Shown here one piece after another: positions 33,270 to 53,892 of a stretch of DNA of 64,000 bases; position 1 is the first letter of the stretch, and the number at the start of each line of letters is the position of its first letter. The stretch is from an uncultured Muribaculaceae bacterium. GTDB taxonomy: Bacteria; Bacillota_I; Bacilli_A; RF39; UBA660. The notes under the pieces are model-generated. The model worked only from the letters and a program-made list of their open reading frames with translations, was not told the origin of the DNA and searched no databases. Location: the NCBI GenBank assembly GCA_964560085.1, contig CAZLKF010000001.1:184794-248793 (forward strand), read 5' to 3'. A program made the translations under genes and the position numbers.

Positions 33270-34328
33270 TTATTTTTTCAATGAAAAACTATTGTTTATA
33301 ATTAAAGTACTATACAAATACAACACTTCAGAGTCATCAACACTTAAATATTCTAAAACACTATCCATATTTATATATCTTAAATCAATTATAACAATTT
33401 CTTTATAAGAGGAAATTAATAAAGGAATTAAGCTACTACCAAATGAATCACGATAAATAACTAATTTTTTATCATTTAAGGCATTAGGATTTTCTATTTT
33501 TATCAATGATTGAGCTCCATTTAAATAAGTATCATACAAATCAAGTGATGAAGCTTTATTTAATGTATAAATTTTATCATTATTTTGATCTTCTAAATAC
33601 CAAACTTTACAATTCAAAATAGCATTTGAAACTAAATAATTAAGTCTTTCTGATTTTACACTTAGACCTAACTGGCCATAATAAACTCCTTTAAAGTCAT
33701 CAATTGTTTTTATTTGATAATCATCAGCATATTTAATGTCCATCACACTAGCCAACTTAGATATAACTTTAATAAGATTTTCTTGACGCCAATGAGTATC
33801 CGTTCTGAAATAATCATTTATTGTTAGTACATCGAACAAGTTTATATTACTTATGTCATTTAAATTATCACTAAGATAGTTTTTTAAATATTCATAGTCA
33901 ATTTTTAAATATTCGTCGTTCAAAAAATATGATTTGTCAGGAATTATTGCATAATACTTTTTGCTGTTTATAAAATACTTATTATTTATTTCATTAATAA
34001 TATTAGTAAAATTATTAAGCGATTCATTATTTAATTTGTAATCAATCTTGTATATATAATCATCTTTAACAAATAAAGAATTAACATCATTCATATTCAA
34101 AAAGTTCAAGTTGTATTGTGCTTTTAATGATCTAAATGCATTGCGAAATGCAAATTGATCTAAAGCATATTCATCAAAATCATTCATAAAATTATTGGTT
34201 ATTTCGGGAAACTGACTTAGTGTACGTCTTTCTTCAGATGAAACAAGAATATCGTCACTTAAAATATTATAAATTAAGAAAAATGATAAATAAAAGACAA
34301 AAGAAAATGTAATTATTTTATTTTTCAT
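33270..34328 (-). CDS. DHHW-family (AlgJ/AlgX/PatB-like SGNH) protein, partner of MBOAT
   Basis: N-terminal TM; FRTDTHW motif (DHHW-like); 3-nt gap to the upstream MBOAT gene. Confidence 0.6.
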   Translation of the reverse strand: MKNKIITFSFVFYLSFFLIYNILSDDILVSSEERRTLSQFPEITNNFMNDFDEYALDQFAFRNAFRSLKAQYNLNFLNMNDVNSLFVKDDYIYKIDYKLNNESLNNFTNIINEINNKYFINSKKYYAIIPDKSYFLNDEYLKIDYEYLKNYLSDNLNDISNINLFDVLTINDYFRTDTHWRQENLIKVISKLASVMDIKYADDYQIKTIDDFKGVYYGQLGLSVKSERLNYLVSNAILNCKVWYLEDQNNDKIYTLNKASSLDLYDTYLNGAQSLIKIENPNALNDKKLVIYRDSFGSSLIPLLISSYKEIVIIDLRYINMDSVLEYLSVDDSEVLYLYSTLIINNSFSLKK

Positions 34329-34330
34329 AG

Positions 34331-35731
34331 TTAAAATCTAAAATATAAGAAAGGATTAAATGAAGAATCAATTAAATAGGCCGTTACAAGCAACAAAATT
34401 GCAATAACAACAATTGGTTCAATAAATAGTAAAACTTTCTTAAATTTACTCCTTTCACTCATTCTTATTTGTAAGTTTTTAAATAATGGTGTTGATGCAA
34501 CAATTGCTATCATAAATAAAATTAGATAGCTCTTTAAATAATAAAGAATTTCCTGATTATAAAAGCTTAATTTATTAAAAGCAAACATATTTTTTAGATT
34601 TAAAACAAGTATGTCCATATTGTCATAATTAAATATCACAAAACTGATTATGACAATAAACATAGTATAAACATGTCCTATTATTTTATGTTTATCAAGA
34701 AACTTTTGGAGAAACATTTTTTCAAGTAATAAAAATACGGCAAAATATAAACCCCAAATAATAAAATTCCAACTAGCACCATGCCAAAAACCTGTTGCAA
34801 ACCAAACTATAAAAATATTTCTTATCCATTTTATTTTACTAACTCTGTTTCCGCCTAAAGGAATATAGATATAATCTCTTAACCAAGACGAAAGTGAAAT
34901 ATGCCAACGACGCCAAAAATCAGTGATGGAAGTTGCTATAAATGGATAATTAAAATTTTCTAAAAATTTAAAACCAAATATACGTCCTAATCCAATTGCC
35001 ATATCACTATAACCACTAAAATCAAAATAAATTTGCAAAGTATAACTTATAGCTTTAATCCAACTTGCTAAAATTGTCATTTCATTAAAATTGCCAATTA
35101 TATTACATAATTGACCAAAAACATTGGCAATTAAGACTTTTTTAGCTAAGCCACCAACAAATCTCTTGACTCCGTAACCGAAATCATCATAATTTGAGTC
35201 GCGTTTCTTTAAAAACTCATTGATATCACTATAGCGAACAATTGGTCCCGCAATTAATTGTGGAAATAAAGCGACATACGTAGCAAAAGATATGAGATTG
35301 TGGTCGGCTTTAACCTTTTTGTTATAGACATCAATAACATAACTCATTGTTTGAAAAGTAAAGAAACTAATTCCTATTGGTAATGTTAATGATAAAAGCC
35401 CAACTTTACTTGAAAAAATTGCATTAATATTCTGAATAAAAAAATTCGTATATTTGAAAAAAAATAAAATTCCAAGATCAATAATAATGGCTGATATTAA
35501 ATATTTCTTCGCTTTATTATTTTTTAAATTTTTTTCAACTAAAAGTCCAAGATAGTAATTTATTAGTATGGAAGCAATAAAAACGATAACGTATTTAGGT
35601 TCACCCAACGTATAAAAAACTAAACTTGCAACAAGCAAAACTAAATTTTTATACTTTTTACTTGCTAAAAAATATATTAATAACAATATAGGTAAAAAGT
35701 AATAAATAAACGATATACTTGAAAATATCAT
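34331..35731 (-). CDS. MBOAT-family membrane O-acyltransferase (AlgI/DltB/PatA-like)
   Basis: Polytopic; conserved MBOAT region WRRWHISLSSWLRDYIYIPLGGNR and catalytic His in FATGFWHGASWNF. Confidence 0.85.
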   Translation of the reverse strand: MIFSSISFIYYFLPILLLIYFLASKKYKNLVLLVASLVFYTLGEPKYVIVFIASILINYYLGLLVEKNLKNNKAKKYLISAIIIDLGILFFFKYTNFFIQNINAIFSSKVGLLSLTLPIGISFFTFQTMSYVIDVYNKKVKADHNLISFATYVALFPQLIAGPIVRYSDINEFLKKRDSNYDDFGYGVKRFVGGLAKKVLIANVFGQLCNIIGNFNEMTILASWIKAISYTLQIYFDFSGYSDMAIGLGRIFGFKFLENFNYPFIATSITDFWRRWHISLSSWLRDYIYIPLGGNRVSKIKWIRNIFIVWFATGFWHGASWNFIIWGLYFAVFLLLEKMFLQKFLDKHKIIGHVYTMFIVIISFVIFNYDNMDILVLNLKNMFAFNKLSFYNQEILYYLKSYLILFMIAIVASTPLFKNLQIRMSERSKFKKVLLFIEPIVVIAILLLVTAYLIDSSFNPFLYFRF

Positions 35732-35767
35732 ATTGATTTCCCTTCTAAAAAAGTCTTCTTTTGAAGA

Positions 35768-36235
35768 CTATTTATTTAATGCTAAAAAATTGTCATGCAT
35801 AGTTTTTCCAATATCATTATTCATTATTAAAACTATGACATCTCCGATGCTATCAACATAAACATTCTTTTCATCAACATCAACGCAAATCCATTTCCTT
35901 GGATTAACTTTAGCTTTAATATCAGTTTTAATTTGTTCAATATTGGTTGTATCATTAAGACGGATTAAAACTACTGAATGAGCAGTTGACGAACGCATTG
36001 GTTCTGAAACTAAAATTTCTTTATAATCAAGTTCATCAAGACCAATATAGTAACTCAAATTTTCTTTTGTAACTTCAGGGTTAGCTAAAGGTGCAGGTAG
36101 TTGTTCTTCAGGAATTCCTTCATACACTTTATCCATTATTTCTGATAAACTAAACTCTAAATTTTTTTCTTTTTTATCGCATCCGACTAATAAAATAGTT
36201 GCAATAATCATTGTTGTAATTAATATTTTTTTCAT
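35768..36235 (-). CDS. Lipoprotein (DUF4358-like)
   Basis: Lipobox LLVGC; 155 aa; third gene of the sigma/anti-sigma operon. Confidence 0.45.
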   Translation of the reverse strand: MKKILITTMIIATILLVGCDKKEKNLEFSLSEIMDKVYEGIPEEQLPAPLANPEVTKENLSYYIGLDELDYKEILVSEPMRSSTAHSVVLIRLNDTTNIEQIKTDIKAKVNPRKWICVDVDEKNVYVDSIGDVIVLIMNNDIGKTMHDNFLALNK

Positions 36236-36237
36236 AT

Positions 36238-36648
36238 TTACTCTCCTTCACATTTTTGAAATTCAATATAATTATCTTCATTTTGTATTATGATTGAATT
36301 TGCTGTTTTTAATCTATAAATTTTGTTTCCCATAATGTATTCTTTTGTTTCCTTAATAAATTGTAATAAATCAACATTACCATTCCAAATACCAACTTCA
36401 TGATAGCAAACTCCTTCAAAGATAATTTGACTATCTTCAGTTCTGATTATTTGAGGAACATTGGGAACTTGTCTATTAAATGAGACCATCATCATAAAGC
36501 AAGCTGAGGCCATGGCCATTAAGAAAATATTAGATAATAAATGATTGTTAATTTTTTTATTATCTGAATTAAGAATATTGTTTAAAATTTCATTTTTTTT
36601 CTTAGTAGATGGAGTTGTTTTATCAAATAATGCTTTAATTCTATTCAT
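36238..36648 (-). CDS. Putative anti-sigma factor (single-pass membrane protein)
   Basis: Overlaps the sigma gene by 8 nt; short cytoplasmic N-terminus, TM LSNIFLMAMASACFMMMV, small extracytoplasmic domain. Confidence 0.45.
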   Translation of the reverse strand: MNRIKALFDKTTPSTKKKNEILNNILNSDNKKINNHLLSNIFLMAMASACFMMMVSFNRQVPNVPQIIRTEDSQIIFEGVCYHEVGIWNGNVDLLQFIKETKEYIMGNKIYRLKTANSIIIQNEDNYIEFQKCEGE

Positions 36649-37132
36649 AGTCTCCCTCCTCCTTTATCATTTCTCCCAGTAATTTTCTGCCACGAAGGAG
36701 ATCAGATCTTACTGTTGATTCATTCATTTTTAAAATAATAGCTATTTCGCTTGTTTTATATCCTGCATAATAATGTAAATAAAGAACATTCTTATATTTT
36801 AAAGGTAAGTTCATTAAACATTCTAGTGTTTGGTCTTTTTGAGTAGTATAACTGGGTTCGGATATTTTTAAAATATCTGAAACTTTATTCCACCAATGCT
36901 TTAAATTATTAAAACACACTCTTTTAGAAGTTAATATCAACCAAGCTTTTTCATGATTAAGATCTGTGAATATAGGTTGTTTTTCGTATAACTTTAAAAA
37001 TGTATTTTGAGTTGCATCTAAAGCATCAGCATCTGACTTCAAGTACATCAAACACAGGTGATAAACCATATCAAAATTTCTATTGTAAATTTGAATGAAT
37101 TCTTCGTTCGTACGTAACAAAGATTCAGTCAT
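36641..37132 (-). CDS. ECF-type RNA polymerase sigma-70 factor
   Basis: 163 aa; region 2 (FDMVYHLCLMYLKSDADALDATQNTFLKLY) and region 4 HTH (YKNVLYLHYYAGYKTSEIAIILKMNESTVRSDLLRGRKLL). Confidence 0.8.
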   Translation of the reverse strand: MTESLLRTNEEFIQIYNRNFDMVYHLCLMYLKSDADALDATQNTFLKLYEKQPIFTDLNHEKAWLILTSKRVCFNNLKHWWNKVSDILKISEPSYTTQKDQTLECLMNLPLKYKNVLYLHYYAGYKTSEIAIILKMNESTVRSDLLRGRKLLGEMIKEEGDYE

Positions 37133-39938: not shown

Positions 39939-41168
39939 ATGAAACTAAAAGAAATTACAAATGAAGAATTTACAAAATTTGCTGATGATTTTCCAACAAA
40001 ATCAATTTTTCAAACAACTGGTTATGCTTTTACAATGAATAAACAACACTTTGATAGTGTATTTTTAGGATTGATTGATGAAAATAATACAATTAGAGCA
40101 GCTTCATTAATATTAATTGCTAATGTTAAAGGGTTCAAATATGCTTATGCTCCAAGGGGTTTTCTTATAGATTATACTAACAAAGAAATGTTAAAAGATT
40201 TTACATTCCAAATAAAAAAATTCTTAAATCGCAATGACATAATTGCCATTAAAATAAATCCTTTAGTTATTCGTAATGTCTATGATAAAAAAGGCAATTT
40301 AATTGCTACTAATCAAAATGATGATATTATTTTAAAGAATTTAACAGATCTTGGTTACGAACATGGCGGTTTTAACAATTATTTTGAAGCTTTCAAACCA
40401 AGATTTGAAGCTATTATCGATTTAAAACCATCATTAGATGATTTATTTATGTCTTGTAAGAAAGCTTTAAGAACAAAAGTTAGAAGAGCGGAACTTAATG
40501 GCATTACCGTGCATCGTGGTGATGACACTAATATTAAATATTTATATGAACAATTAAAAGCAACTTATCCCCGTGATATGAAGTATTTTCAAGATTCGTA
40601 TGAATTTTACAGTCGTAATAATTTGATAGATTTCTATTATGCCAAAATTGAAACAAGTACTTTTTTAGCTCAATCGCAAAAATTGTATCAAGACCAAGAA
40701 CAATTAGTAAGTGATTTAAGTAATACAGTTATTGTGGAAGCAAAAAATGATTCTAGCAAGACTCTTAGTATGAAATTAGAAGCAGATAATTTGCTTGCTA
40801 GTTATAAAGATCAATTATTACGTGCAACTCAATTATTAAAAGACCACCCTGAAGGAATAATTACTGCATGTGCTCTTGTCATCAAAAATGGTGCAGAAGC
40901 TGTTCTTTTAATAGATAGCCGTGATAAAGAATATTCTTCATTTAATTCTAAGCATATCTTACTATGGAAAATCATTTGCAAATATGCAATGGATGGTTAT
41001 AAAAAATTTAATCTAGGAGCCGTTTCAAATATTAAACTTAAACCGAATAAATTTCAAGGATTAAACGATTTCAAATGTAACTTCAATCCTAAAGTTTATG
41101 AATATTTGGGTGACTTTGAACTTGTAGCTGTTAAATCATTATATTTAATGTATAAAGCTGTAAAATAA
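39939..41168 (+). CDS. FemAB-family peptidoglycan interpeptide-bridge aminoacyltransferase
   Basis: 409 aa; N-terminus MKLKEITNEEFTKFADDFPTKSIFQTTGYAF parallels FemA/FemX; GNAT-like halves with an inserted coiled coil. Confidence 0.8.
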   Translation: MKLKEITNEEFTKFADDFPTKSIFQTTGYAFTMNKQHFDSVFLGLIDENNTIRAASLILIANVKGFKYAYAPRGFLIDYTNKEMLKDFTFQIKKFLNRNDIIAIKINPLVIRNVYDKKGNLIATNQNDDIILKNLTDLGYEHGGFNNYFEAFKPRFEAIIDLKPSLDDLFMSCKKALRTKVRRAELNGITVHRGDDTNIKYLYEQLKATYPRDMKYFQDSYEFYSRNNLIDFYYAKIETSTFLAQSQKLYQDQEQLVSDLSNTVIVEAKNDSSKTLSMKLEADNLLASYKDQLLRATQLLKDHPEGIITACALVIKNGAEAVLLIDSRDKEYSSFNSKHILLWKIICKYAMDGYKKFNLGAVSNIKLKPNKFQGLNDFKCNFNPKVYEYLGDFELVAVKSLYLMYKAVK

Positions 41169-41198: not shown

Positions 41199-42707
41199 TT
41201 AATTAATAGGTTCAGTACTAACCCAATAATATTCACCAGTAGTATTTTTAGCAAATGTATGTTTATACTTTTTTGCATAGTTTTTTACTGAATATACTTC
41301 CTTTATTTCGTCTTCGTTCACTTTTACAACATTGCCCGTCGTTTTATCCGTGACTAAACCTTTGTCAATACATTTTATATCACCGATTTTTTCAACAGAA
41401 TCTGAATATGCATAAATTGTTCCAATTATAGAGTCTTTTTGGCAATAATCATATTCATAGTCTTCATCTATTAAAGTGGTTAGTTTTGGTTGGTAGTTAT
41501 CATGAATTTTTACATATCCTATTGAATCTTCACTATATAAGTAAATGTAATTACCTTCTTCTATAGCAGATGTTATAGTTGGTGATGTATATTCACATAT
41601 CTCCGTTTTTTCTTGAACACCACCTACTACACCATCATATAAACCAAGGCCACTAAATCCCGAACCATAATTAAAATATCCTGTTATAACTGTTAATTCT
41701 TTCGGCATTTTTATTGATGATGTATTATAAATTTTAACTAATGTTTTTTTTAACTCTTCCAAAGTTATAGATGGTTTATCTTCACAAACATATTTAGAAT
41801 TGTTTAAAATAGTACTGTAATAAGAAATAAGCAATAAGTTTTCATATGACAAATCTTTATATGTTACTTTTTTTGATTGATAAGTTGTAAATGGTAAATT
41901 GTAATATGTTGATGAAATATAAGTCATTAACTTTTTGACTGTAGCATTTGTTAATGATAATTCCTTTATTGGCGCAACAACAATGATTGTCCTTGTTGCA
42001 GTTGCAACCTCAGTTGCACTATTAGTAACTGAATAAGTCAATGTATATTTGCCGGCAACATTGCTATTTACCTTACCAGTTATTACTACATTTGATGATA
42101 AGTCTCCTTCTTTTGTATCTTTAGCAATATATCCTGGTTCAACATACGTTTCATCTTTATTAATGACCGCAATTTCTTCACCTTTTAATTCTAATGTTAA
42201 TGTTGTTTCTTTTGATACAACAGTTACTTTTCTCGTCAATGATGAGGTTAAAGAATCACTGTCAGTGACACTATATAAAATAGTATAGAATCCTGCTTTT
42301 TCAGAATTAACCGTTCCTTCAATTACAACTTTTCCTGTAATATCACCATCTTTATCATCATTGGCTTGATATCCAGGGTCAACGTAAGCTTCCCCTTCAG
42401 TTAAAGTAATTGAATTTTCACCAATTAATACTAATGTTGGTGCCACTTTGGATACTGGTTGTTGTTCTTTCTTTGATGCTAAAATCAAATATGTAACTAC
42501 TCCAGCTAATATTAAAACTAATATTGCTAAGATTATAACTAATAAATTATTATTGTTTCGACGATTATTCTCTTCACTTTGAGGTTCAAAATGATCTTTT
42601 TGATTATTACTATAGTCTTCAATTTTTACTTCATTTGTTGAAACATTCGTTATATTTTCTTGTACCTTTTCATTTTTTTCAATATTTGTATTTTGTTTTT
42701 CTCCCAT
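41199..42707 (-). CDS. Type-II membrane-anchored surface protein, two DUF5011-type Ig-like domains + variable C-terminal domain (paralog A)
   Basis: Likely start MGEKQN at 42707 (RBS GGAG); Asn-rich cytoplasmic tail, TM LLVIILAILVLILAGVVTYLILA, two Ig-like modules (YVDPGY...DGD(I/L)...GTVNS..AG.Y.(I/L)(L/T)YSVT), then a divergent C-terminal domain. Confidence 0.6.
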   Translation of the reverse strand: MGEKQNTNIEKNEKVQENITNVSTNEVKIEDYSNNQKDHFEPQSEENNRRNNNNLLVIILAILVLILAGVVTYLILASKKEQQPVSKVAPTLVLIGENSITLTEGEAYVDPGYQANDDKDGDITGKVVIEGTVNSEKAGFYTILYSVTDSDSLTSSLTRKVTVVSKETTLTLELKGEEIAVINKDETYVEPGYIAKDTKEGDLSSNVVITGKVNSNVAGKYTLTYSVTNSATEVATATRTIIVVAPIKELSLTNATVKKLMTYISSTYYNLPFTTYQSKKVTYKDLSYENLLLISYYSTILNNSKYVCEDKPSITLEELKKTLVKIYNTSSIKMPKELTVITGYFNYGSGFSGLGLYDGVVGGVQEKTEICEYTSPTITSAIEEGNYIYLYSEDSIGYVKIHDNYQPKLTTLIDEDYEYDYCQKDSIIGTIYAYSDSVEKIGDIKCIDKGLVTDKTTGNVVKVNEDEIKEVYSVKNYAKKYKHTFAKNTTGEYYWVSTEPIN

Positions 42708-42740
42708 ATAAATCTCCAAATCTAATACAAAATTAAACTT
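41953..42740. repeat. Direct repeat copy 1 (~0.79 kb, ~98-99% identical to 43417..44204)
   Basis: Covers the 5' end plus RBS of paralog A; the offset to copy 2 is exactly 1464 bp; the identical antisense 79-aa ORFs 42049..42288 and 43513..43752 in the track are a by-product of the repeat. Confidence 0.85.
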
Positions 42741-42773
42741 CACATATTATATTACATTAAAGTTATGCAACTA

Positions 42774-44171
42774 CTATTTTACAATTTCACTACTTACAAA
42801 ATAATAATCATTGTTATCATTATATTTCTTAAACGTATGCTTATAATAAGGAACACTTACATCTTCATATATTGTTTCATTTAAAATTGAATATAGGTTG
42901 TTATCTGATGGTGGATAGCAATATGTTTCACCTATTTTAATTTTGAGTTCACTATCAGCATAGGCATATTTGATTACACCCTCAGAATCACAATTATCAA
43001 AAGTTCCTCCTTGCTCAACATTTAAATTAGTATTTTTTTCTTCGACATACTTATCATAAATATATATATAATCGCCATCTTGAATAGCAGCTGACAATAA
43101 AGATGTATCTAAAGTTAATCCTTTGTTACCATTTTGCCACTTCTTTGTAGCATTGTCATAGGTTATATCTGTTTGATCAAATAAAACTTTAGTAGTAGTT
43201 GGAATACTAATGTTTGTTACATTATACATTTTTTTTAAACAGTCTGTAAGTTCTTTATTTGTCATTTCCGAATCGTTGTCGCAACTATAAAAAGCAGCAG
43301 CGAGCATTGCTTCTTTTTTTAATTCTTTATAAGTGATTTTTTTAGTTTGATGATTATTAAGCGTTCCAGAATAATAATTAACAATACTATACAATTTTTT
43401 TACTAATTGATCATTAATTGATAATTCCTTTATTGGCGTAACAACAATGATTGTTCTTGTTGCAGTTGCAACCTCAGTTGCACTATTAGTAACTGAATAA
43501 GTCAATGTATATTTGCCGGCAACATTGCTATTTACCTTACCAGTTATTACTACATTTGATGATAAGTCTCCTTCTTTTGTATCTTTAGCAATATATCCTG
43601 GTTCAACATACGTTTCATCTTTATTAATGACCGCAATTTCTTCACCTTTTAATTCTAATGTTAATGTTGTTTCTTTTGATACAACAGTTACTTTTCTCGT
43701 CAATGATGAGGTTAAAGAATCACTGTCAGTGACACTATATAAAATAGTATAGAATCCTGCTTTTTCAGAATTAACCGTTCCTTCAATTACAACTTTTCCT
43801 GTAATATCACCATCTTTATCATCATTGGCTTGATATCCAGGGTCAACGTAAGCTTCCCCTTCAGTTAAAGTAATTGAATTTTCACCAATTAATACTAATG
43901 TTGGTGCCACTTTGGATACTGGTTGTTGTTCTTTCTTTGATGCTAAAATCAAATATGTAACTACTCCAGCTAATATTAAAACTAATATTGCTAAGATTAT
44001 AACTAATAAATTATTATTGTTTCGACGATTATTCTCTTCACTTTGAGGTTCAAAATGATCTTTTTGATTATTACTATAGTCTTCAATTTTTACTTCATTT
44101 GTTGAAACATTCGTTATATTTTCTTGTACCTTTTCATTTTTTTCAATATTTGTATTTTGTTTTTCTCCCAT
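42774..44171 (-). CDS. Type-II membrane-anchored surface protein, two DUF5011-type Ig-like domains + variable C-terminal domain (paralog B)
   Basis: Start MGEKQN at 44171 (RBS GGGAG); the first ~260 aa are identical to paralog A except for one or two substitutions; the C-terminal domain is only distantly similar (YKHTF, YIYIY, YYFVSSE). Confidence 0.6.
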   Translation of the reverse strand: MGEKQNTNIEKNEKVQENITNVSTNEVKIEDYSNNQKDHFEPQSEENNRRNNNNLLVIILAILVLILAGVVTYLILASKKEQQPVSKVAPTLVLIGENSITLTEGEAYVDPGYQANDDKDGDITGKVVIEGTVNSEKAGFYTILYSVTDSDSLTSSLTRKVTVVSKETTLTLELKGEEIAVINKDETYVEPGYIAKDTKEGDLSSNVVITGKVNSNVAGKYTLTYSVTNSATEVATATRTIIVVTPIKELSINDQLVKKLYSIVNYYSGTLNNHQTKKITYKELKKEAMLAAAFYSCDNDSEMTNKELTDCLKKMYNVTNISIPTTTKVLFDQTDITYDNATKKWQNGNKGLTLDTSLLSAAIQDGDYIYIYDKYVEEKNTNLNVEQGGTFDNCDSEGVIKYAYADSELKIKIGETYCYPPSDNNLYSILNETIYEDVSVPYYKHTFKKYNDNNDYYFVSSEIVK

Positions 44172-44204
44172 ATAAATCTCCCATTCTAATATAATTTTTT
44201 TCAT
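43417..44204. repeat. Direct repeat copy 2
   Basis: Same as above; only a few SNPs at the 3' boundary (GCGCAAC vs GCGTAAC; TGTCCTT vs TGTTCTT). Confidence 0.85.
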
Positions 44205-44262
44205 TTAGGTCCAAATCAACATATCATCAGCCTAACTTTGTATTTTTCTTCTTATTTAATTA

Positions 44263-45912
44263 TTAATTTTTTACAACTACCGCTGTTCCACTGCTATAAT
44301 CAACAATAACTGATTTATTCATATCATTAGCAAAGTACCTTGGAATACTTTTACTAAAATGAGTTATACAATTCACATAACTACCACCTAATCTTGATAC
44401 TGAGTTTGTAATAATCAATTGTTTAGCACTCAATATTTTTGCACTAGCATCAGTAACGCCACAAGATGAATAAGCATGATGTGGTATTTTAACAACATCA
44501 ACTTGGCCAATTACCTTGATAATTGGGGTCAAGATAGCTGATGTATATGAATCGGCGCCTAAGAATGTTTTGATATTACCTATTTGAATATATTGAACAA
44601 CTGAATTAACATTCTCATTTCCACCTTCATAATCTGATTGATTCATTCTTTGAACTGTATTATATAAAGTAATTTTCATTGCATCAAGATTAAAAGTATA
44701 TCCTTCACTTAATGTTTCGATATAAGTAATAGGAATCTTTCTATCAGTAGCTGCTGTTATAAACCAATTATAACGATTTCTTTGAGCATCACTACAACCT
44801 GCATCTTTACATAAATATGTTTTTATATAAACTTTCTTTACATTAATTCCACTTTTAATTATAGTTGCCCCACCACCAATATGATCAGCATGATTGTGGG
44901 TTATAAGAATAAAGTCCAAAGTGTTAACATTAAGACTTTCTAAATAGTTTTTAACTCTGTTCATATCGGCAGTATTAGTTAAACCAGTATCAATCATAGC
45001 ATAATGACCATTTGATTCTAATAAAATTGCATCGGCTGAATCTTGTACTTGTTTTATAAAATGAATTTTTATAGAATTTTTGACGGTAATTAAAGCTTTC
45101 GCTTCAAAATCACCATCAACTGTAATTGCTTTTATGGTTGCCGTGCCTTCTTTTAAAGCTTTTATTTTTCCTGACTTTACACTTACAACACTCTCATTGC
45201 TACTAGACCAAACAACACTTTTATTGCTAGCATCACTAGGAATGATTGTTGTCTTAATTGTTTTTTCATCGCCAACATACATTAAAATATTTTGTTCATC
45301 TAATGCTATTCCTGTTACTCTTCTTAAAACATTTACAGAGCAAGTAGTTACTATTTTCTCATCACTAGTTTTTGCAGTAATTATTGTTGTTCCCTTAGCT
45401 ATGCCTCTTATAATTCCATTTTCTACAGTAGCTATATTTTTATTGCTACTAGTCCACACCAATTCTTTATTGGTTGCATTATTAGGTATAATAGTTGCGG
45501 TTAATTTTATAGTTTCATCTTCACCTATACTGACTTTTTGACTACTAAGTTTGATTTCTGTTACTAAAACTTCTTTCTTTATTACGATGACACTAAATGT
45601 CAAAACTTGATCATTTAGATTGTTAGTTATTTCGATAATTGCGTTTCCTTCATTTATAGCTCTTACATTGCCTTGATAATCAGCAATTGCAATATTAGGA
45701 TTATGACTTTTATATGATAATTTATATTGTTTTCCCCCAGTTTTAGCAATAACTTTAATCTGTTCAATTTGATTGGTTTCTAAAGTTGTATATGTTTTTT
45801 CCAAAGAAAATTCATATGCTGTATTAGGATTGTTAGCAATTATTAAATATATAGCACAACCAATTAATGCTATTAATACTCCAGCACAAATTCTAAAAAT
45901 TTTTTCACTCAT
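44263..45912 (-). CDS. Membrane-anchored surface protein: three Big_2 Ig-like domains + C-terminal MBL-fold (ComEC-like) metallo-hydrolase
   Basis: N-terminal TM ICAGVLIALIGCAIYLII; Big_2 repeats (VTEIKLSSQKVSIGEDETIKLTATIIPNNATNKELVWTSSN...); MBL motif ILITHNHADHIGGG. Confidence 0.65.
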   Translation of the reverse strand: MSEKIFRICAGVLIALIGCAIYLIIANNPNTAYEFSLEKTYTTLETNQIEQIKVIAKTGGKQYKLSYKSHNPNIAIADYQGNVRAINEGNAIIEITNNLNDQVLTFSVIVIKKEVLVTEIKLSSQKVSIGEDETIKLTATIIPNNATNKELVWTSSNKNIATVENGIIRGIAKGTTIITAKTSDEKIVTTCSVNVLRRVTGIALDEQNILMYVGDEKTIKTTIIPSDASNKSVVWSSSNESVVSVKSGKIKALKEGTATIKAITVDGDFEAKALITVKNSIKIHFIKQVQDSADAILLESNGHYAMIDTGLTNTADMNRVKNYLESLNVNTLDFILITHNHADHIGGGATIIKSGINVKKVYIKTYLCKDAGCSDAQRNRYNWFITAATDRKIPITYIETLSEGYTFNLDAMKITLYNTVQRMNQSDYEGGNENVNSVVQYIQIGNIKTFLGADSYTSAILTPIIKVIGQVDVVKIPHHAYSSCGVTDASAKILSAKQLIITNSVSRLGGSYVNCITHFSKSIPRYFANDMNKSVIVDYSSGTAVVVKN

Positions 45913-46011
45913 AAAATCACCAAATTTAAAATTATATTATATAGAAAACCATAAAAATAAAATTACTCTCACCTATTATGTTAATTGTATCACAAATTAG
46001 TAATTTTGTAA

Positions 46012-46044
46012 TAAAAAAAGAATCGATTTTTATCGATTCTTTAA
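46012..46044 (-). terminator. Rho-independent terminator of the str/tuf operon
   Basis: AAGAATCGAT-TTTT-ATCGATTCTT hairpin followed by a T-run on the minus strand. Confidence 0.6.
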
Positions 46045-50449: not shown

Positions 50450-51898
50450 TTATTCCGAAACAATTTTCTTTTTACGTTTCTTCTTTTTAAGTAAAAATGC
50501 CAAAATCCCTATTAATAAAAATTGAACAATAACTAATATTTCTAATATAGTAACATAAAGACCATTTTCTTTTTTTTCTGAACTTGATTCTTCAATTGGT
50601 TGCTCTTTTTTATCATCATCTTGTTTTTCGTCTTTTAAAATTTTAATTCTATATTCTTTATTAGTTCCATCCTCAGCAGTTATAGAAATTGTAATTATAC
50701 TATCATTTTTTAGGTTTTCATTTCCCGTAATAATATAATTTGCTTTCTCGCTTTCTAAAGTAACATTAATATCAAGTTTTTCTTCTTCGTTAATTTTTAA
50801 AGAATAATCTAAAGTGTTATTATCGAATGTCAAATCATAATTACTAATTTTTAAATCTGTGATATTAGTATTATCACTTAATATTTCTTTGATTCCTGCC
50901 CTTGTAATATTTAAAGTATATGTATTAATAGTTTTATTTTCGGCAGATACTTTAATTAATATTTTATTCAAACCTTCTTTTAATGACACTTCTCTATTTC
51001 CATAGTTGGTTACATAACTAGAAGTAGTATCTGTTAATGTGGACGTTATAGTTACTTTTTCAACTTCATTTAAAACCGTTAAATTATAGTTGTTGACACT
51101 TGAACTAAAATTTATTATTCCCTCACTTAACGACAATGTTTTTAAAGTGTTTACTTTGCTGCGGTTATCTTCTCTCTTAATATTCAAAGTATAGATTTTT
51201 TTTACACCTGATGCGCCAGTAACATTTACTTTAAATACATTCATTCCATAAGCTAAAGTTTTATTTCCAACCGAACCACTAATTGTTGCATTTGCATCTG
51301 TTGCCGTTGCTTCAATCAAAACACTTGTTGTTGTGGCTGGGAATGTTGCATTATAGCTAGTTTTATCACCGGCAAATCCAGCTATTTCTTCACCATTTAA
51401 ACTTAATGATGAAAGTGTGTTGACACTTGATAAAATATTTAATGAAAGAGTTCCACCAGTAACACTGACAGAATCACCATTCTTGTCAGTTGCAACAGGT
51501 TTAGTAAGTGTAATATTTGTATTGCCAAAAGCAGCATTATTATTGACTTTAAAAACTAATTTAACGATATTTTTTGATGTATCACTAATTAATTCATCAT
51601 AATTTAAGTTACCATAACTGAATTTTTTTCCATTTGTCACAGTAGCAAATGTTGTATAAGAAGCTGATAAAAGTTTTGTTTGACTACTCAAAGTTAAAAC
51701 ATCTGCATCCCAGCTAACAATTCCGTCGACTCCAGAAATAGTCGCTTCTGAACTAGTACGATTTAAATTTATGTAGATAGTTACATCTTCACCACGAGCA
51801 GCTTTTGTTGATCCAGTAGGTTTTAATGACATAGCTTCGATGTTTTTTAAACCAAGTAGCATTAGAAAAATAAGAAAAATTATTTTTTTACATCTCAT
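50450..51898 (-). CDS. Membrane-anchored cohesin-like + cadherin-like repeat protein (second mini-scaffoldin/anchor)
   Basis: Signal peptide; N-terminal cohesin-like module (GEDVTIYINLNRTS...WDADVLTLSS...IVKLVFKVNNNAAFG); cadherin-like repeats (LSSLSLNGEEIAGFAGDKTSYNATF..); C-terminal TM followed by KKKKRKKK. Confidence 0.55.
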   Translation of the reverse strand: MRCKKIIFLIFLMLLGLKNIEAMSLKPTGSTKAARGEDVTIYINLNRTSSEATISGVDGIVSWDADVLTLSSQTKLLSASYTTFATVTNGKKFSYGNLNYDELISDTSKNIVKLVFKVNNNAAFGNTNITLTKPVATDKNGDSVSVTGGTLSLNILSSVNTLSSLSLNGEEIAGFAGDKTSYNATFPATTTSVLIEATATDANATISGSVGNKTLAYGMNVFKVNVTGASGVKKIYTLNIKREDNRSKVNTLKTLSLSEGIINFSSSVNNYNLTVLNEVEKVTITSTLTDTTSSYVTNYGNREVSLKEGLNKILIKVSAENKTINTYTLNITRAGIKEILSDNTNITDLKISNYDLTFDNNTLDYSLKINEEEKLDINVTLESEKANYIITGNENLKNDSIITISITAEDGTNKEYRIKILKDEKQDDDKKEQPIEESSSEKKENGLYVTILEILVIVQFLLIGILAFLLKKKKRKKKIVSE

Positions 51899-51900
51899 AA

Positions 51901-53892
51901 CTAACCTCCATAAATTTCCTTCGCAATTTTCATAATATCACTTAGACTATATTCATAATCATTATTATAATCAGCAGCTAGCAAGAATTCACCCTTTAAA
52001 ATGTTTTCATCGGCATATAGATATTTAGCAAGTTTCATAATATCAGCAAGAGTTAATTCCCCGTCTCCATTAACATCGCCTTTTAAGATTATTTTATAAC
52101 GCGTTTCATCACCTTCAACATTAACGCTAACTCCAGTCTTCATATTATCTTCATCAGCTAATGTTTGTTCTAAAACATCAATTAATGTATAAGGTTGAAG
52201 TAAATTAAATGTTGTTTTAAATGTTTGTATATCCATTAAATCAACTATTTTAAAGTAAAAAGCAATATCTGGATTTTTAGCATTACAAGTGCGATAAGCA
52301 TCTCTTATTCTAGCATAATTGTTTGAATTTAATATTAAATTAACAATATCTAAACAATTATTAAAAATTCCTGATAAATTAACTGTTTCATTTAAAACAA
52401 AACTACTTAAGTTTAAAGTTACTAAACTAGTACAACCACTGAACATATAAGTCATAGTTGTAACATTGCTAGTGTTAATTCCATCCAAATTTAAATTTTC
52501 AAGATTCTTACAACCATTAAACATATAAGTCATGCTTGTTACTTTGGTAGTATTAAAATCGCTTAAATTTAAAGTTGTTAAAGAAATACAACCATTAAAC
52601 ATATAAGCCATGCTTAAGACATTACTTGTATTAAAATGTGATAAATTCAAAGTTTCAAGGTTTTTACAACCGCTAAACATATAAGCCATACTAGTAACAC
52701 TAATTGTATTAAAACTAGTCAAATCAATTACATTCAACGATGTACATCCATTAAACATATCATACATGGTTGTCACCTTTGCTGTGTTAAAACTACTTAA
52801 ATTCAAATTTGTTAAAGAAATACAATCACGAAACATAGCCGTCATATTTGTAACTTCGGTTGTATCAAAATTAACTAGATTCAACATTGTTAATTTTTGA
52901 CAATCACGAAACATGCTTTCCATTGTTGTAACTTTACTCGTATTAAATGAACTCAAATTCAAAATAGACATATTGCTACATCCATTAAACATACTTTCCA
53001 TACTGATAACATTGGTAGTGTCAAAATTAAAAGTCAAAGTTGTTAAAGATGCACAATCATTAAACATATAGGCCATATTTGTAACTTTACTCGTATTAAA
53101 ACTGCTTAAATCTAAAGTTGTTAAAGAAGTGCATCCGTTAAACATACTAACCATATTTATAACATTTATTGTATTAAAACCAGTTAAATTTAAAGTTTTT
53201 AAACTCGTCAAACGATAAAACATGCTTTCCATAGTTATTACATTGTTTGTATCAAAATGACTTAAATCTAGGTTTTCTAAACCACTAGCTCTACTGAACA
53301 TATAAGCCATATTTGTAACTTTGCTTGTATTAAATGAACTCAAATTTAAGGTTATTAAACTACTACATTTATAAAATATGCTTTCCATATTTATAACATT
53401 ACTTGTGTTAAAATTGGTAAGATCTAAATTATTGAGTTTAGAGTCTCCACTAAACATACTTTCCATATTTATAACATTAATTGTATTTATGTTAGCAAAT
53501 GTAATATTTTCTAAATTTGTGAAACCTTTAAACATAATAGAAGAATTAGTTGGAAAATTAATGACTGCAGTACTACCAACATACATAATATAATTGTTTG
53601 TTACTTGATTGACTTCTAACCAAACAAAAACTTTTTCATCGCTCATTGTTAAATCTGTAATATCTTCTTTTATAAGAGCATTTGTATATTTTAAATTTAA
53701 GTTTTCATTTGTATCATTAATGAAATTAATTGTTTCAATTTTTGTTTTTTCTTGTTCAATTGCAACTGGCCAAAACAAACTTGAGGAATTTCTTTTCATG
53801 TAGCTTTCAGCAAATACCTTTGAAATTGATGCAAAAGAAAATAATGATATAAGAAAAAATATTGACAAAAATTTAGAAATAGATAATCTCAT
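51901..53892 (-). CDS. Secreted BspA-type leucine-rich-repeat protein with C-terminal dockerin
   Basis: Signal peptide; about 15 tandem ~23-aa LRRs (NLxxFNTSxVTNMxxMFxxCxSLTxL); C-terminus GDVNGDGELTLADIMKLAKYLY...AADYNNDYEYSLSDIMKIAKEIYG (two Ca-binding dockerin segments). Confidence 0.65.
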   Translation of the reverse strand: MRLSISKFLSIFFLISLFSFASISKVFAESYMKRNSSSLFWPVAIEQEKTKIETINFINDTNENLNLKYTNALIKEDITDLTMSDEKVFVWLEVNQVTNNYIMYVGSTAVINFPTNSSIMFKGFTNLENITFANINTINVINMESMFSGDSKLNNLDLTNFNTSNVINMESIFYKCSSLITLNLSSFNTSKVTNMAYMFSRASGLENLDLSHFDTNNVITMESMFYRLTSLKTLNLTGFNTINVINMVSMFNGCTSLTTLDLSSFNTSKVTNMAYMFNDCASLTTLTFNFDTTNVISMESMFNGCSNMSILNLSSFNTSKVTTMESMFRDCQKLTMLNLVNFDTTEVTNMTAMFRDCISLTNLNLSSFNTAKVTTMYDMFNGCTSLNVIDLTSFNTISVTSMAYMFSGCKNLETLNLSHFNTSNVLSMAYMFNGCISLTTLNLSDFNTTKVTSMTYMFNGCKNLENLNLDGINTSNVTTMTYMFSGCTSLVTLNLSSFVLNETVNLSGIFNNCLDIVNLILNSNNYARIRDAYRTCNAKNPDIAFYFKIVDLMDIQTFKTTFNLLQPYTLIDVLEQTLADEDNMKTGVSVNVEGDETRYKIILKGDVNGDGELTLADIMKLAKYLYADENILKGEFLLAADYNNDYEYSLSDIMKIAKEIYGG

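What the first reader, a model, noticed from the sequence alone, without database searches (positions are those of the whole stretch)
41199..44204. Tandem paralogous Ig-like surface proteins with a ~0.79-kb near-identical 5' direct repeat and divergent C-terminal domains (gene conversion / cassette-like variation)
Two adjacent minus-strand genes have DNA that is ~98-99% identical from the RBS through codon ~265 (41953..42740 versus 43417..44204, offset exactly 1464 bp). This segment encodes an Asn-rich cytoplasmic tail, a TM anchor and two DUF5011-type Ig-like domains. The C-terminal ~240 aa are clearly homologous but highly diverged (shared islands YKHTF, YIY(L/I)Y, YY(W/F)VS(T/S)E). Such a sharp switch from near-identity to low identity implies recent gene conversion homogenising the 5' half, or recombination shuffling variable C-terminal 'heads' onto a constant stalk. 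That is typical of phase-variable or host-interaction proteins. Read mapping would collapse this repeat and the pair could be misassembled.
Basis: seen in the sequence. Interest (0 to 1): 0.6.

Follow-up and report, generated by a model that had tools for sequence, protein, structure and literature searches.

The report
Tandem surface-protein genes, recently gene-converted
Two neighbouring genes for membrane-anchored surface proteins share a perfectly identical front half (anchor plus two Ig-like domains) but have anciently diverged outer "head" domains. This is best explained by a very recent gene conversion at a fast-evolving locus, which is a known kind of event in a poorly known protein family.

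Summary
Minus-strand genes A (41199..42707, 502 aa) and B (42774..44171, 465 aa) share an exact 726-nt stretch (41992..42717 = 43456..44181, offset 1464). It runs from the first G of the GGAG ribosome-binding site to the end of the second PF16403 Ig-like domain. Beyond it, identity falls at once to about 50% nt, 33% aa and 41% at third codon positions.

Both proteins have a cytoplasmic Asn-rich tail, one TM helix, two Ig-like domains and a C-terminal head. The head belongs to a large family with no Pfam or NCBIfam model (about 2,700 representative clusters; invariant YKHTF…S.E).

Related uncultured Erysipelotrichaceae-like genomes keep the flanking genes (tuf, femAB, topA) at 78-96% aa identity. 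The slot between tuf and femAB holds one or two such genes that are only 20-57% identical. The tandem pairs in two other species show no identity step.

The best reading is a very recent intrachromosomal gene conversion of the 5' module. I found no silent cassettes, repeat tracts, invertible elements or nearby recombinases, so there is no support for programmed phase or cassette variation. Assembly or polishing artefacts cannot be fully excluded, because the genome is a single public assembly. This is a new member of a known kind and of moderate interest.

The parts
41199..42707 (-). Gene A (next to femAB), 502 aa: cytoplasmic Asn-rich tail (aa 1-54), TM helix (aa 55-77), two PF16403 Ig-like domains (aa ~90-249), C-terminal head (aa 250-502).
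   Evidence: ORF. Pfam PF16403 E 5.1e-42, two stretches. This exact 502-aa product is in the public collection. Head family membership.
42774..44171 (-). Gene B (on the tuf side), 465 aa: the same tail, TM and two Ig-like domains, with a different head (aa 250-465).
   Evidence: ORF. Pfam PF16403 E 2.9e-41. Identical to P0180, found independently by the exhaustive HMMER search.
41955..42727 (-). Repeat copy 1 (in gene A). Exact core 41992..42717; the edges 41955..41991 and 42718..42727 carry 2 mismatches each.
   Evidence: Base-by-base comparison at offset 1464; sliding identity.
43419..44191 (-). Repeat copy 2 (in gene B). Exact core 43456..44181.
42714..42717 (-). GGAG ribosome-binding site of gene A, 8 nt before the ATG at 42707. 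The exact identity tract begins at its first G. The equivalent site for gene B is 44178..44181.
   Evidence: Sequence printed.
42477..42545 (-). Coding region of the TM helix LLVIILAILVLILAGVVTYLILA of gene A (gene B: 43941..44009). RR lies before it and KK after it.
   Evidence: Translation. The N-in/C-out topology is inferred from the missing signal peptide and the extracellular Ig-like domains.
41199..41954 (-). Head-domain coding region of gene A (251 aa plus stop), with longer loop insertions than B.
   Evidence: BLASTP A vs B heads 28% identity, E 3e-19. AF2 model pLDDT 73.5, pTM 0.74.
42774..43418 (-). Head-domain coding region of gene B (214 aa plus stop).
   Evidence: AF2 model pLDDT 82.3, pTM 0.84: three helices followed by a long antiparallel sheet. 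Only weak NTF2-like matches.
42708..42773 (-). Unique 66-nt spacer joining the stop codon of B to the repeat in A. It is the physical link that shows a tandem arrangement. It contains no terminator-like or promoter-like site.
44172..44262 (-). 91-nt region upstream of gene B. It is unrelated to the region upstream of gene A beyond about 10 nt.
44263..45912 (-). Upstream gene in the same slot: a TM-anchored protein with three Big_2 domains and a metallo-beta-lactamase-fold domain (549 aa). It is probably co-transcribed with B and A. It is absent from this slot in all relatives examined.
   Evidence: Pfam; NCBIfam. tblastn places its only homologues elsewhere in L005-L007 and L012.
46017..46042 (-). 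Intrinsic-terminator-like hairpin after tuf, marking the upstream edge of the variable slot. A promoter-like site with an extended -10 follows at 46012..45984.
39939..41168 (+). femAB-family gene, convergent with gene A with a 30-nt gap. It is the conserved downstream anchor of the slot.
   Evidence: Pfam PF02388 E 3.4e-61. It is 78-93% aa identical in relatives.

Best explanation
A and B are two real, adjacent paralogous genes for bitopic (N-in, C-out) cell-surface proteins. Each has a cytoplasmic Asn-rich tail, one TM helix and a stalk of two PF16403 Ig-like domains. Each ends in a ~215-250-aa head from a widespread uncharacterised family marked by YKHTF...YYWVSTE. The genes lie in a fast-evolving slot between tuf and femAB in a clade of uncultured, low-GC, Erysipelotrichaceae-like Bacilli.

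The duplication itself is old, because the heads are saturated at synonymous sites. Very recently, a non-reciprocal homologous recombination between the two copies (intrachromosomal gene conversion, tract at least 726 nt) overwrote the RBS-tail-TM-stalk module of one copy with that of the other. The heads and the upstream regions were left untouched.

Shown: the identity step, the domain architecture, the family, the synteny, and the absence of a step in other species. Inferred: the conversion mechanism, the topology, and co-transcription with the upstream MBL gene.

One predicted consequence is that the 726-nt direct repeats, 1464 nt apart, can now recombine. That would delete B's head and leave a single hybrid gene (B upstream region, shared module, A head).
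For: - The exact 726-nt tract has abrupt edges.
- The N-module differs at 2 of 750 nt. The heads are 33% aa and 41% third-position identical. The probability of such a run is about 7e-100.
- Both heads are intact ORFs that keep every family-invariant residue.
- The unique 66-nt spacer B-stop -> RBS-A physically links the copies.
- The same slot in relatives holds one or two homologous genes while the flanks stay 78-96% identical.
- Tandem pairs in L007/L008 and L005/L010 have Ig regions only 40% and 33% identical. They share no nucleotide repeat longer than about 50 nt.
- The L007 and L005 pairs are each reproduced at 99.8-99.9% in an independent metagenome, so tandem pairs at this slot are real.
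- Paralogs cluster by genome in NJ trees: window pair 66% bootstrap on heads, L007 pair 88% and 93%. This fits lineage-specific duplication and/or recurrent homogenisation.
Against: - Only one public assembly carries these genes. No reads or second strain were available, so the perfect identity has not been independently verified.
- Which copy was the donor cannot be told.
- Orthology of the two copies to the pairs in other species is unresolved at 25-35% identity. 'Old pair, then conversion' and 'lineage-specific duplication, then conversion' cannot be separated.
- The tract edges coincide with functional boundaries (the RBS and the end of Ig2). A random conversion tract need not do this, which hints at selection on the outcome or at a modular exchange.
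Confidence: 0.7

Rival explanations
1. Assembly or polishing artefact. There are two real genes, but their 5' halves are only similar. They were made identical by repeat mis-threading or by consensus polishing with multi-mapped reads. Alternatively, the tandem arrangement is a chimera of two strains.
For: Both proteins are singletons on one 260,692-bp contig in the public collection. A 726-nt perfect repeat is longer than short-read k-mers. Related genomes are all MAGs.
Against: The unique 66-nt junction from B's stop to A's RBS cannot arise from two single-copy strain alleles. Tandem pairs at this slot are reproduced in independent samples for two other species. Polishing can erase a few differences but cannot create identity from the 30-40% aa identity seen in other pairs. 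The tract edges show graded decay (2 mismatches in 37 nt, then about 50%), as expected for a biological recombination end.
Confidence: 0.1
2. Recent whole-gene tandem duplication, followed by replacement of one head by homologous recombination with a foreign allele (allelic replacement or HGT at a hypervariable locus), rather than conversion between old paralogs.
For: Divergence of the slot proteins does not track flank divergence. FemAB 93% goes with slot 39%, while FemAB 79% goes with slot 44%. This would fit allele exchange or paralog sorting.
Against: The upstream regions of A and B are unrelated beyond the RBS, which is not expected for a fresh tandem duplication. The two heads are each other's closest relatives in the tree (66% bootstrap), not relatives of heads from other genomes. 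No head in 5.8 billion proteins is closer than about 31% to either one. No mobile-element genes lie nearby.
Confidence: 0.12
3. A programmed variation system (phase or antigenic variation). A constant expression module recombines with alternative head cassettes, or expression switches between heads.
For: The constant 5' module with variable 3' heads superficially resembles cassette systems. The locus evolves very fast between species.
Against: There are only two full-length genes, each with its own RBS and start. No silent or partial cassettes exist in 64 kb. There are no inverted repeats, no notable homopolymer or SSR tracts and no site-specific recombinase nearby. The locus is 99.8-99.9% stable between independent samples of two related species. 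Direct repeats allow only irreversible deletion.
Confidence: 0.05

Closest known systems
Partial interlocus gene conversion between paralogous bacterial surface-protein genes, e.g. Helicobacter pylori babA/babB and sabA/sabB, and the Streptococcus pyogenes mrp-emm-enn tandem genes (from my own knowledge, not tested here)
   Same: Paralogous outer-surface protein genes in one genome have blocks of near-identity next to strongly diverged ligand-facing regions. RecA-type non-reciprocal exchange produces the pattern.
   Different: Here the proteins are TM-anchored, not outer-membrane or LPXTG proteins. The variable part is C-terminal. The copies are directly adjacent. There is no evidence of expression switching or of a known ligand.
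Fibrillar-adhesin-like 'stalk plus head' architecture with PF16403 (Bact_surface_Ig-like, formerly DUF5011) domains
   Same: Two tandem PF16403 Ig-like domains sit between the membrane anchor and a distal globular domain.
   Different: The stalk has only two domains. There is no signal peptide, LPXTG or S-layer anchor. The head is not a known adhesive domain.
NTF2-like extracellular or intermembrane-space domains, e.g. the ARC6/PARC6 IMS domain and ketosteroid-isomerase-like or SnoaL-like proteins
   Same: Both AF2 head models retrieve NTF2-like folds as their top Foldseek matches, over about 115 residues (helices followed by a curved sheet).
   Different: All matches are weak: E 0.03-1 and TM 0.2-0.36. 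They cover about half of the domain. There is no sequence similarity. This is a resemblance, not a membership.
Polymorphic toxin loci (a constant N-terminal module with variable C-terminal toxin tips and downstream orphan cassettes; PMC3482391 appeared in the search but I did not read it)
   Same: A constant 5' module, variable 3' ends and tandem arrangement.
   Different: The two heads are homologous to each other and to a ~2,700-cluster family of stand-alone ~300-aa membrane proteins. There is no room for immunity genes (66-nt and 30-nt gaps). There is no trafficking or secretion domain.

Membership tests
PF16403 Bact_surface_Ig-like (DUF5011) domain proteins | Match to the Pfam model above its gathering score (27 bits) | tested here: met
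   A scores 142.2 bits and B 139.8 bits, with two stretches each.
Interlocus (ectopic) gene conversion between paralogs | A tract of identity bounded on both sides by homologous but diverged sequence in the same genome | tested here: met
   A 726-nt exact tract. The 3' flank is homologous at 50% nt and 33% aa. The 5' flank shows about 10 nt of residual similarity and then none.
Interlocus (ectopic) gene conversion between paralogs | A tract longer than expected from the overall density of differences | tested here: met
   P is about 7e-100 for a run of at least 716 nt with 323 mismatches over 1389 aligned sites.
Interlocus (ectopic) gene conversion between paralogs | Silent-site divergence differs between segments, which excludes purifying selection as the cause | tested here: met
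   Identical codons at 248 of 249 conserved residues in the N-module, against 37 of 71 in the heads. Third-position identity is 99.6% against 41%.
Interlocus (ectopic) gene conversion between paralogs | Comparable paralog pairs in related genomes lack the identity step | tested here: met
   The L007 pair is 40% (Ig) and 33% (head) identical; the L005 pair is 33% and 22%. Neither has a long nucleotide repeat.
Interlocus (ectopic) gene conversion between paralogs | Both copies verified by independent sequencing (not an assembly product) | not testable with these tools
   The proteins are singletons on one contig. No reads or second assembly were available.
Programmed cassette or phase-variation systems (pilE/pilS, vlsE, MgPa type; shufflons; SSR switches) | Silent donor cassettes, invertible segments with inverted repeats and a recombinase, or slippage-prone repeats in the promoter or 5' coding region | tested here: not met
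   No further copies in the window. No relevant inverted repeats. Only trivial tandem repeats. No recombinase in the flanking genes.
Polymorphic toxin / immunity loci | An unrelated C-terminal toxin domain followed by a cognate immunity gene | tested here: not met
   The heads are homologous (E 3e-19) and belong to a common family of stand-alone proteins. The intergenic gaps are 66 and 30 nt.
Sortase-anchored (LPXTG) adhesins | An N-terminal signal peptide and a C-terminal LPXTG motif with a hydrophobic tail | tested here: not met
   The sequences start with a 54-aa hydrophilic tail and a single TM helix. They end in ...YYWVSTEPIN and ...YYFVSSEIVK.
Uncharacterised 'YKHTF...YYWVSTE' head-domain family (no Pfam or NCBIfam model) | Profile match over the whole ~200-250-aa domain, with the invariant Y-K-H-T-F and S..E residues | tested here: met
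   The profile search gave 53 hits. The exhaustive HMMER search gave 2,730 representatives at E<=1e-3 and recovered B itself as P0180 at 1.2e-35. Invariant columns are listed.
NTF2-like fold superfamily | A significant structural match (alpha+beta cone) to solved NTF2-like structures | tested here: inconclusive

The most novel reading that the evidence does not exclude
The head is an unrecognised extracellular binding or sensor module, possibly NTF2-like. It occurs as a stand-alone bitopic protein in thousands of Firmicutes lineages. It also sits in the sensor position of an ECF-sigma fusion and of a BlaR1-type M56 transducer. In this clade it occupies a dedicated hypervariable slot next to femAB and diversifies under pressure from phage or the host. 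The stalk-plus-anchor module is kept identical by recurrent conversion because the two paralogs work together, for example as a heteromer through their tail, TM and stalk. That would be a two-headed surface receptor with concerted stalks and divergent heads.
Probability: 0.15. Interest if true: 0.55.

Novelty: new member of a known kind. Interest (0 to 1): 0.35.

Why it matters
The gene conversion itself is textbook biology. It matters in practice because it is a clean, very recent example in an uncultured gut- or rumen-type Firmicute. It also flags a repeat that will collapse in read mapping and can delete one gene.

The more useful by-product is the locus and the family. A conserved tuf-femAB slot carries surface proteins that diverge to 20-57% identity while the flanking genes stay at 78-96%. 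The head domain defines a large family (about 2,700 clusters at 50% identity) with no Pfam, NCBIfam or PDB relative. That family would be a reasonable target for a new domain definition and for tests as a phage receptor or an envelope sensor.

Tried and rejected
1. Looked for more copies or cassettes of the stalk or head in the window with tblastn. Only A and B were found.
2. Looked for the same stalk on other heads in 5.8 billion proteins. The nearest are unrelated PF16403 proteins at 37-40%.
3. Looked for independent assemblies of A or B. The contig index has none, and both are singletons on one NCBI contig.
4. Tried a family-profile scan of genome contigs. I used the conserved neighbour FemAB as an anchor instead. 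This yielded 10 loci, none from the window's species.
5. The promoter scan was uninformative: 41 sites against 37 expected. No promoter-like site lies in either upstream spacer.
6. Rfam found nothing in the whole window.
7. Pfam, NCBIfam and PDB sequence searches of the head found nothing. Weak hits to Tetraspanin, Sigma_reg_N and FliL fall on the TM segment only.
9. Tested a cell-wall-synthesis link by gene neighbourhood. Three of 7 distant family members sit beside peptidoglycan genes: murT/gatD/PBP5, ftsL-pbp2B in a dcw cluster, and alr with a Mur ligase. The other four do not. With femAB here this is suggestive only, and I do not rely on it.
10. Rejected the polymorphic-toxin and LPXTG-adhesin readings (see the membership tests).
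11. Two literature searches returned nothing specific to this family.
Full report
**Observation**

The region holds two adjacent minus-strand ORFs and a long direct repeat at spacing 1464. A base-by-base comparison at that offset gives an exact 726-nt run, 41992..42717 = 43456..44181. It extends to 41955..42727 with four mismatches. In a MAFFT alignment of the two genes with their flanks, 60-nt windows are 100% identical inside the tract and about 30-60% outside it.

On a codon alignment, the first 250 codons differ at 2 of 750 nt. The remaining 213 aligned codons are 33% identical in amino acids, 50% in nucleotides and 41% at third positions. Conserved residues use the same codon in 248 of 249 cases in the 5' part, against 37 of 71 in the 3' part. 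If the 323 differences were scattered uniformly, a run this long would have probability of about 7e-100. The tract is in fact perfect over its core.

**Gene models**

The identity tract starts exactly at the first G of a GGAG, 8 nt before an ATG (42707 in A, 44171 in B). The products read from those ATGs (502 and 465 aa, MGEKQNT...) are exactly the sequences present in the public protein collection. The longer products of the mechanical ORF list are not there. The upstream spacers (66 nt for A, 91 nt for B) are unrelated beyond about 10 nt. No terminator-like site separates the upstream MBL gene, B and A. A terminator-like hairpin follows tuf at 46017-46042, and a promoter-like site follows that. 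Co-transcription of the three genes is an inference.

**What the proteins are**

Both have a 54-aa hydrophilic Asn-rich N-terminus, one hydrophobic helix (LLVIILAILVLILAGVVTYLILA) and two PF16403 Ig-like domains (142 and 140 bits, two stretches each). Each then has a C-terminal region with no Pfam, NCBIfam or PDB sequence match. The two C-terminal regions are homologous (BLASTP 28%, E 3e-19).

A profile of these regions plus one first hit found 53 relatives among 5.8 billion proteins. An exhaustive HMMER search of 1.84 billion cluster representatives found 2,730 at E<=1e-3 and 1,267 at E<=1e-10. It recovered B itself as P0180. Most members are ~300-aa proteins with a short N-terminus, a TM helix (or a lipoprotein-like signal), a low-complexity linker and this domain. 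The residues Y-K-H-T-F and S..E near the C-terminus are invariant. Only P0009 among the first 53 hits carries PF16403 as well.

AlphaFold models of the heads are of fair to good confidence: A has pLDDT 73.5 and pTM 0.74; B has pLDDT 82.3 and pTM 0.84. Each shows three helices followed by a long antiparallel sheet. The conserved motifs lie in the most confident strands, and A's extra loops have low confidence. Foldseek against the PDB gives no significant match. The top hits for both models are NTF2-like folds: the PARC6/ARC6 intermembrane-space domain, ketosteroid-isomerase-like proteins and the CaMKII association domain. Best E values are 0.029 (B) and 0.35 (A), with TM 0.2-0.36. The viral library gave nothing. 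I treat NTF2-like as a lead only.

**Comparative context**

The first distant hit, P0001, lies beside femAB and topA homologues. I therefore used the window's FemAB protein as an anchor to fetch the same neighbourhood from genomes and metagenomes. I also looked up the contigs of individual hits. The source records name uncultured Firmicutes, Bacilli or Erysipelotrichaceae MAGs. Across these loci, TopA, FemAB, EF-Tu and EF-G are 78-96% identical to the window's. The interval between tuf and femAB varies:

| Locus | Content of the tuf-femAB slot |
|---|---|
| L002 | One 305-aa gene without Ig domains |
| L004 | One 448-aa gene with two Ig domains |
| L006 | One 488-aa gene |
| L007 / L008 | A tandem pair of 476 and 413 aa |
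| L005 / L010 | A pair of 362 and 497 aa, the first with a decayed head |
| L001 | A 295-aa gene followed by a pseudogene with two in-frame stops and internal deletions that keeps Ig and head remnants |
| Window | An extra Big_2x3-MBL gene, then B and A |

Slot proteins are only 20-57% identical between these genomes. Their divergence is far larger than flank divergence and does not track it:

| Pair | FemAB identity | Slot-protein identity |
|---|---|---|
| L005 vs L009 | 97% | 88% |
| L002 vs L001 | 93% | 53% |
| Window vs L002 | 93% | 39% |
| L005 vs L006 | 79% | 44% |

The window's slot has no nucleotide-level match to any other locus.

**Test of the identity step**

In the two other species with tandem pairs, the Ig regions of the paralogs are 40% (L007) and 33% (L005) identical. 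Their heads are 33% and 22% identical. Self-BLAST finds no repeat longer than about 50 nt. Those pairs recur at 99.8% and 99.9% nucleotide identity in independent metagenomes (L007 vs L008, L005 vs L010). Tandem pairs at this slot are therefore genuine and stable.

The step from 100% to about 50% is specific to the window's genome. Because silent sites are identical in the 5' module and saturated in the heads, selection cannot explain the step. Only a recent transfer of sequence between the copies can. NJ trees place paralogs together by genome: window heads 66% bootstrap, L007 heads 88%, L007 Ig regions 93%. The pairs may therefore stem from lineage-specific duplications or from earlier rounds of homogenisation. 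At 25-35% identity I cannot separate these two possibilities.

**Mechanism proposed**

I propose RecA-type non-reciprocal recombination (gene conversion) between the tandem copies. It covered at least 726 nt, from the RBS to the end of the second Ig domain. Confidence is 0.7.

The graded edges fit recombination ends in pre-existing homology: 2 mismatches in the next 37 nt on the 3' side, then about 50% identity, and 2 in 10 nt on the 5' side. The coincidence of the edges with functional boundaries may reflect selection on viable products. It may also reflect some benefit of a shared tail, TM and stalk. Both ideas are speculative.

One consequence is that the direct repeats can now mediate deletion of the 1464-nt unit, leaving a single hybrid gene. 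This is predicted, not observed.

**Rivals**

- An assembly or polishing artefact cannot be excluded, because the genes occur on a single public contig. However, the unique B-stop-to-A-RBS junction, the intact and distinct heads and the tandem pairs in relatives argue that at least the arrangement is real (confidence 0.1).
- A recent duplication followed by replacement of one head with a foreign allele is disfavoured. The upstream regions are unrelated, the two heads cluster weakly with each other, and neither has any close relative elsewhere (confidence 0.12).
- A programmed cassette or phase-variation system finds no support. There are no silent cassettes, no inverted repeats, no notable simple repeats and no recombinase in the flanking genes. 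The slot is also stable within related species (confidence 0.05).
- Polymorphic-toxin and LPXTG-adhesin architectures fail their defining features.

**Function of the head**

Function is unknown, and I commit only to an extracellular binding or recognition module. The grounds are:

- Its position distal to an Ig-like stalk.
- Its occurrence in the extracytoplasmic position of an ECF sigma-factor fusion (P0111: Sigma70_r2 and r4, TM, head).
- Its occurrence in five copies after a BlaR1-type M56 transducer domain (P0054).
- The weak NTF2-like resemblance.

Gene neighbourhood gives a mixed signal. femAB lies next to it here. Three of seven distant members lie beside peptidoglycan or division genes, and four do not.

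**Verdict**

The cassette and phase-variation half is not. This is a new example of a known process (partial gene conversion between tandem surface-protein paralogs), set in a hypervariable locus and an uncharacterised domain family. Interest is moderate (0.35).

Noticed in passing
window 44263-45912 (-): A TM-anchored protein with three Big_2 domains and a metallo-beta-lactamase-fold domain sits between tuf and gene B. None of the related loci has a gene at this position; their only MBL homologues (30-35% identity) lie elsewhere. It looks like an insertion into the variable slot and is probably co-transcribed with B and A.
   Followed up: partly
L001 1139-1660 (+): A pseudogenised second paralog lies between the intact 295-aa slot gene and femAB. 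It has a tail, a TM helix, a truncated first Ig domain and a shortened head ending in ...YIWESSEMVK, with two in-frame stops. This shows gene decay (birth-and-death turnover) at the slot.
   Followed up: yes
proteins P0111 and P0054: The head domain also occurs fused behind an ECF sigma factor plus TM helix (P0111). It occurs five times in a 2,261-aa protein that starts with a BlaR1-type peptidase M56 domain (P0054). This suggests an extracellular sensor or binding role for the family.
   Followed up: partly
loci L015, L017, L019 (contexts of P0030, P0024, P0040): Three distant family members lie directly beside cell-wall genes: alr with a Mur ligase, murT-gatD-PBP5, and mraZ-rsmH-ftsL-pbp2B. 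Four others (L020-L023) do not; two of those sit inside housekeeping gene strings (pgk-X-tpi, rplQ...pheS). The cell-wall link is possible but inconsistent.
   Followed up: partly
window 50450-53892 (-): Just upstream of rpsL lie two more predicted surface proteins: a Cadherin-like beta-sandwich protein (482 aa) and a DUF285/LRR protein with a C-terminal type I dockerin (663 aa). A dockerin in an Erysipelotrichaceae-like genome is unusual.
   Followed up: no
window 33270-37132 (-): Downstream of topA lies an envelope-related gene string: an ECF-type sigma factor (163 aa), a 136-aa ORF with no Pfam match that overlaps it by 8 nt (possibly an anti-sigma factor), a DUF4358 protein, an MBOAT O-acyltransferase and a DHHW protein. 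In relative L002, MoxR/DUF58/VWA genes follow topA instead, so this side of the neighbourhood also differs.
   Followed up: no
window 1-64000: No Rfam family reaches its gathering score anywhere in the 64-kb window. That means no tRNA, rRNA, riboswitch, T-box or ribosomal-protein leader, even around the rpsL-rpsG-fusA-tuf operon.
   Followed up: no
window 42049-42288 (+) and 43513-43752 (+): Identical 79-aa antisense ORFs appear inside both repeat copies. They are mirror images of the repeat on the opposite strand, with no support as genes.
   Followed up: partly
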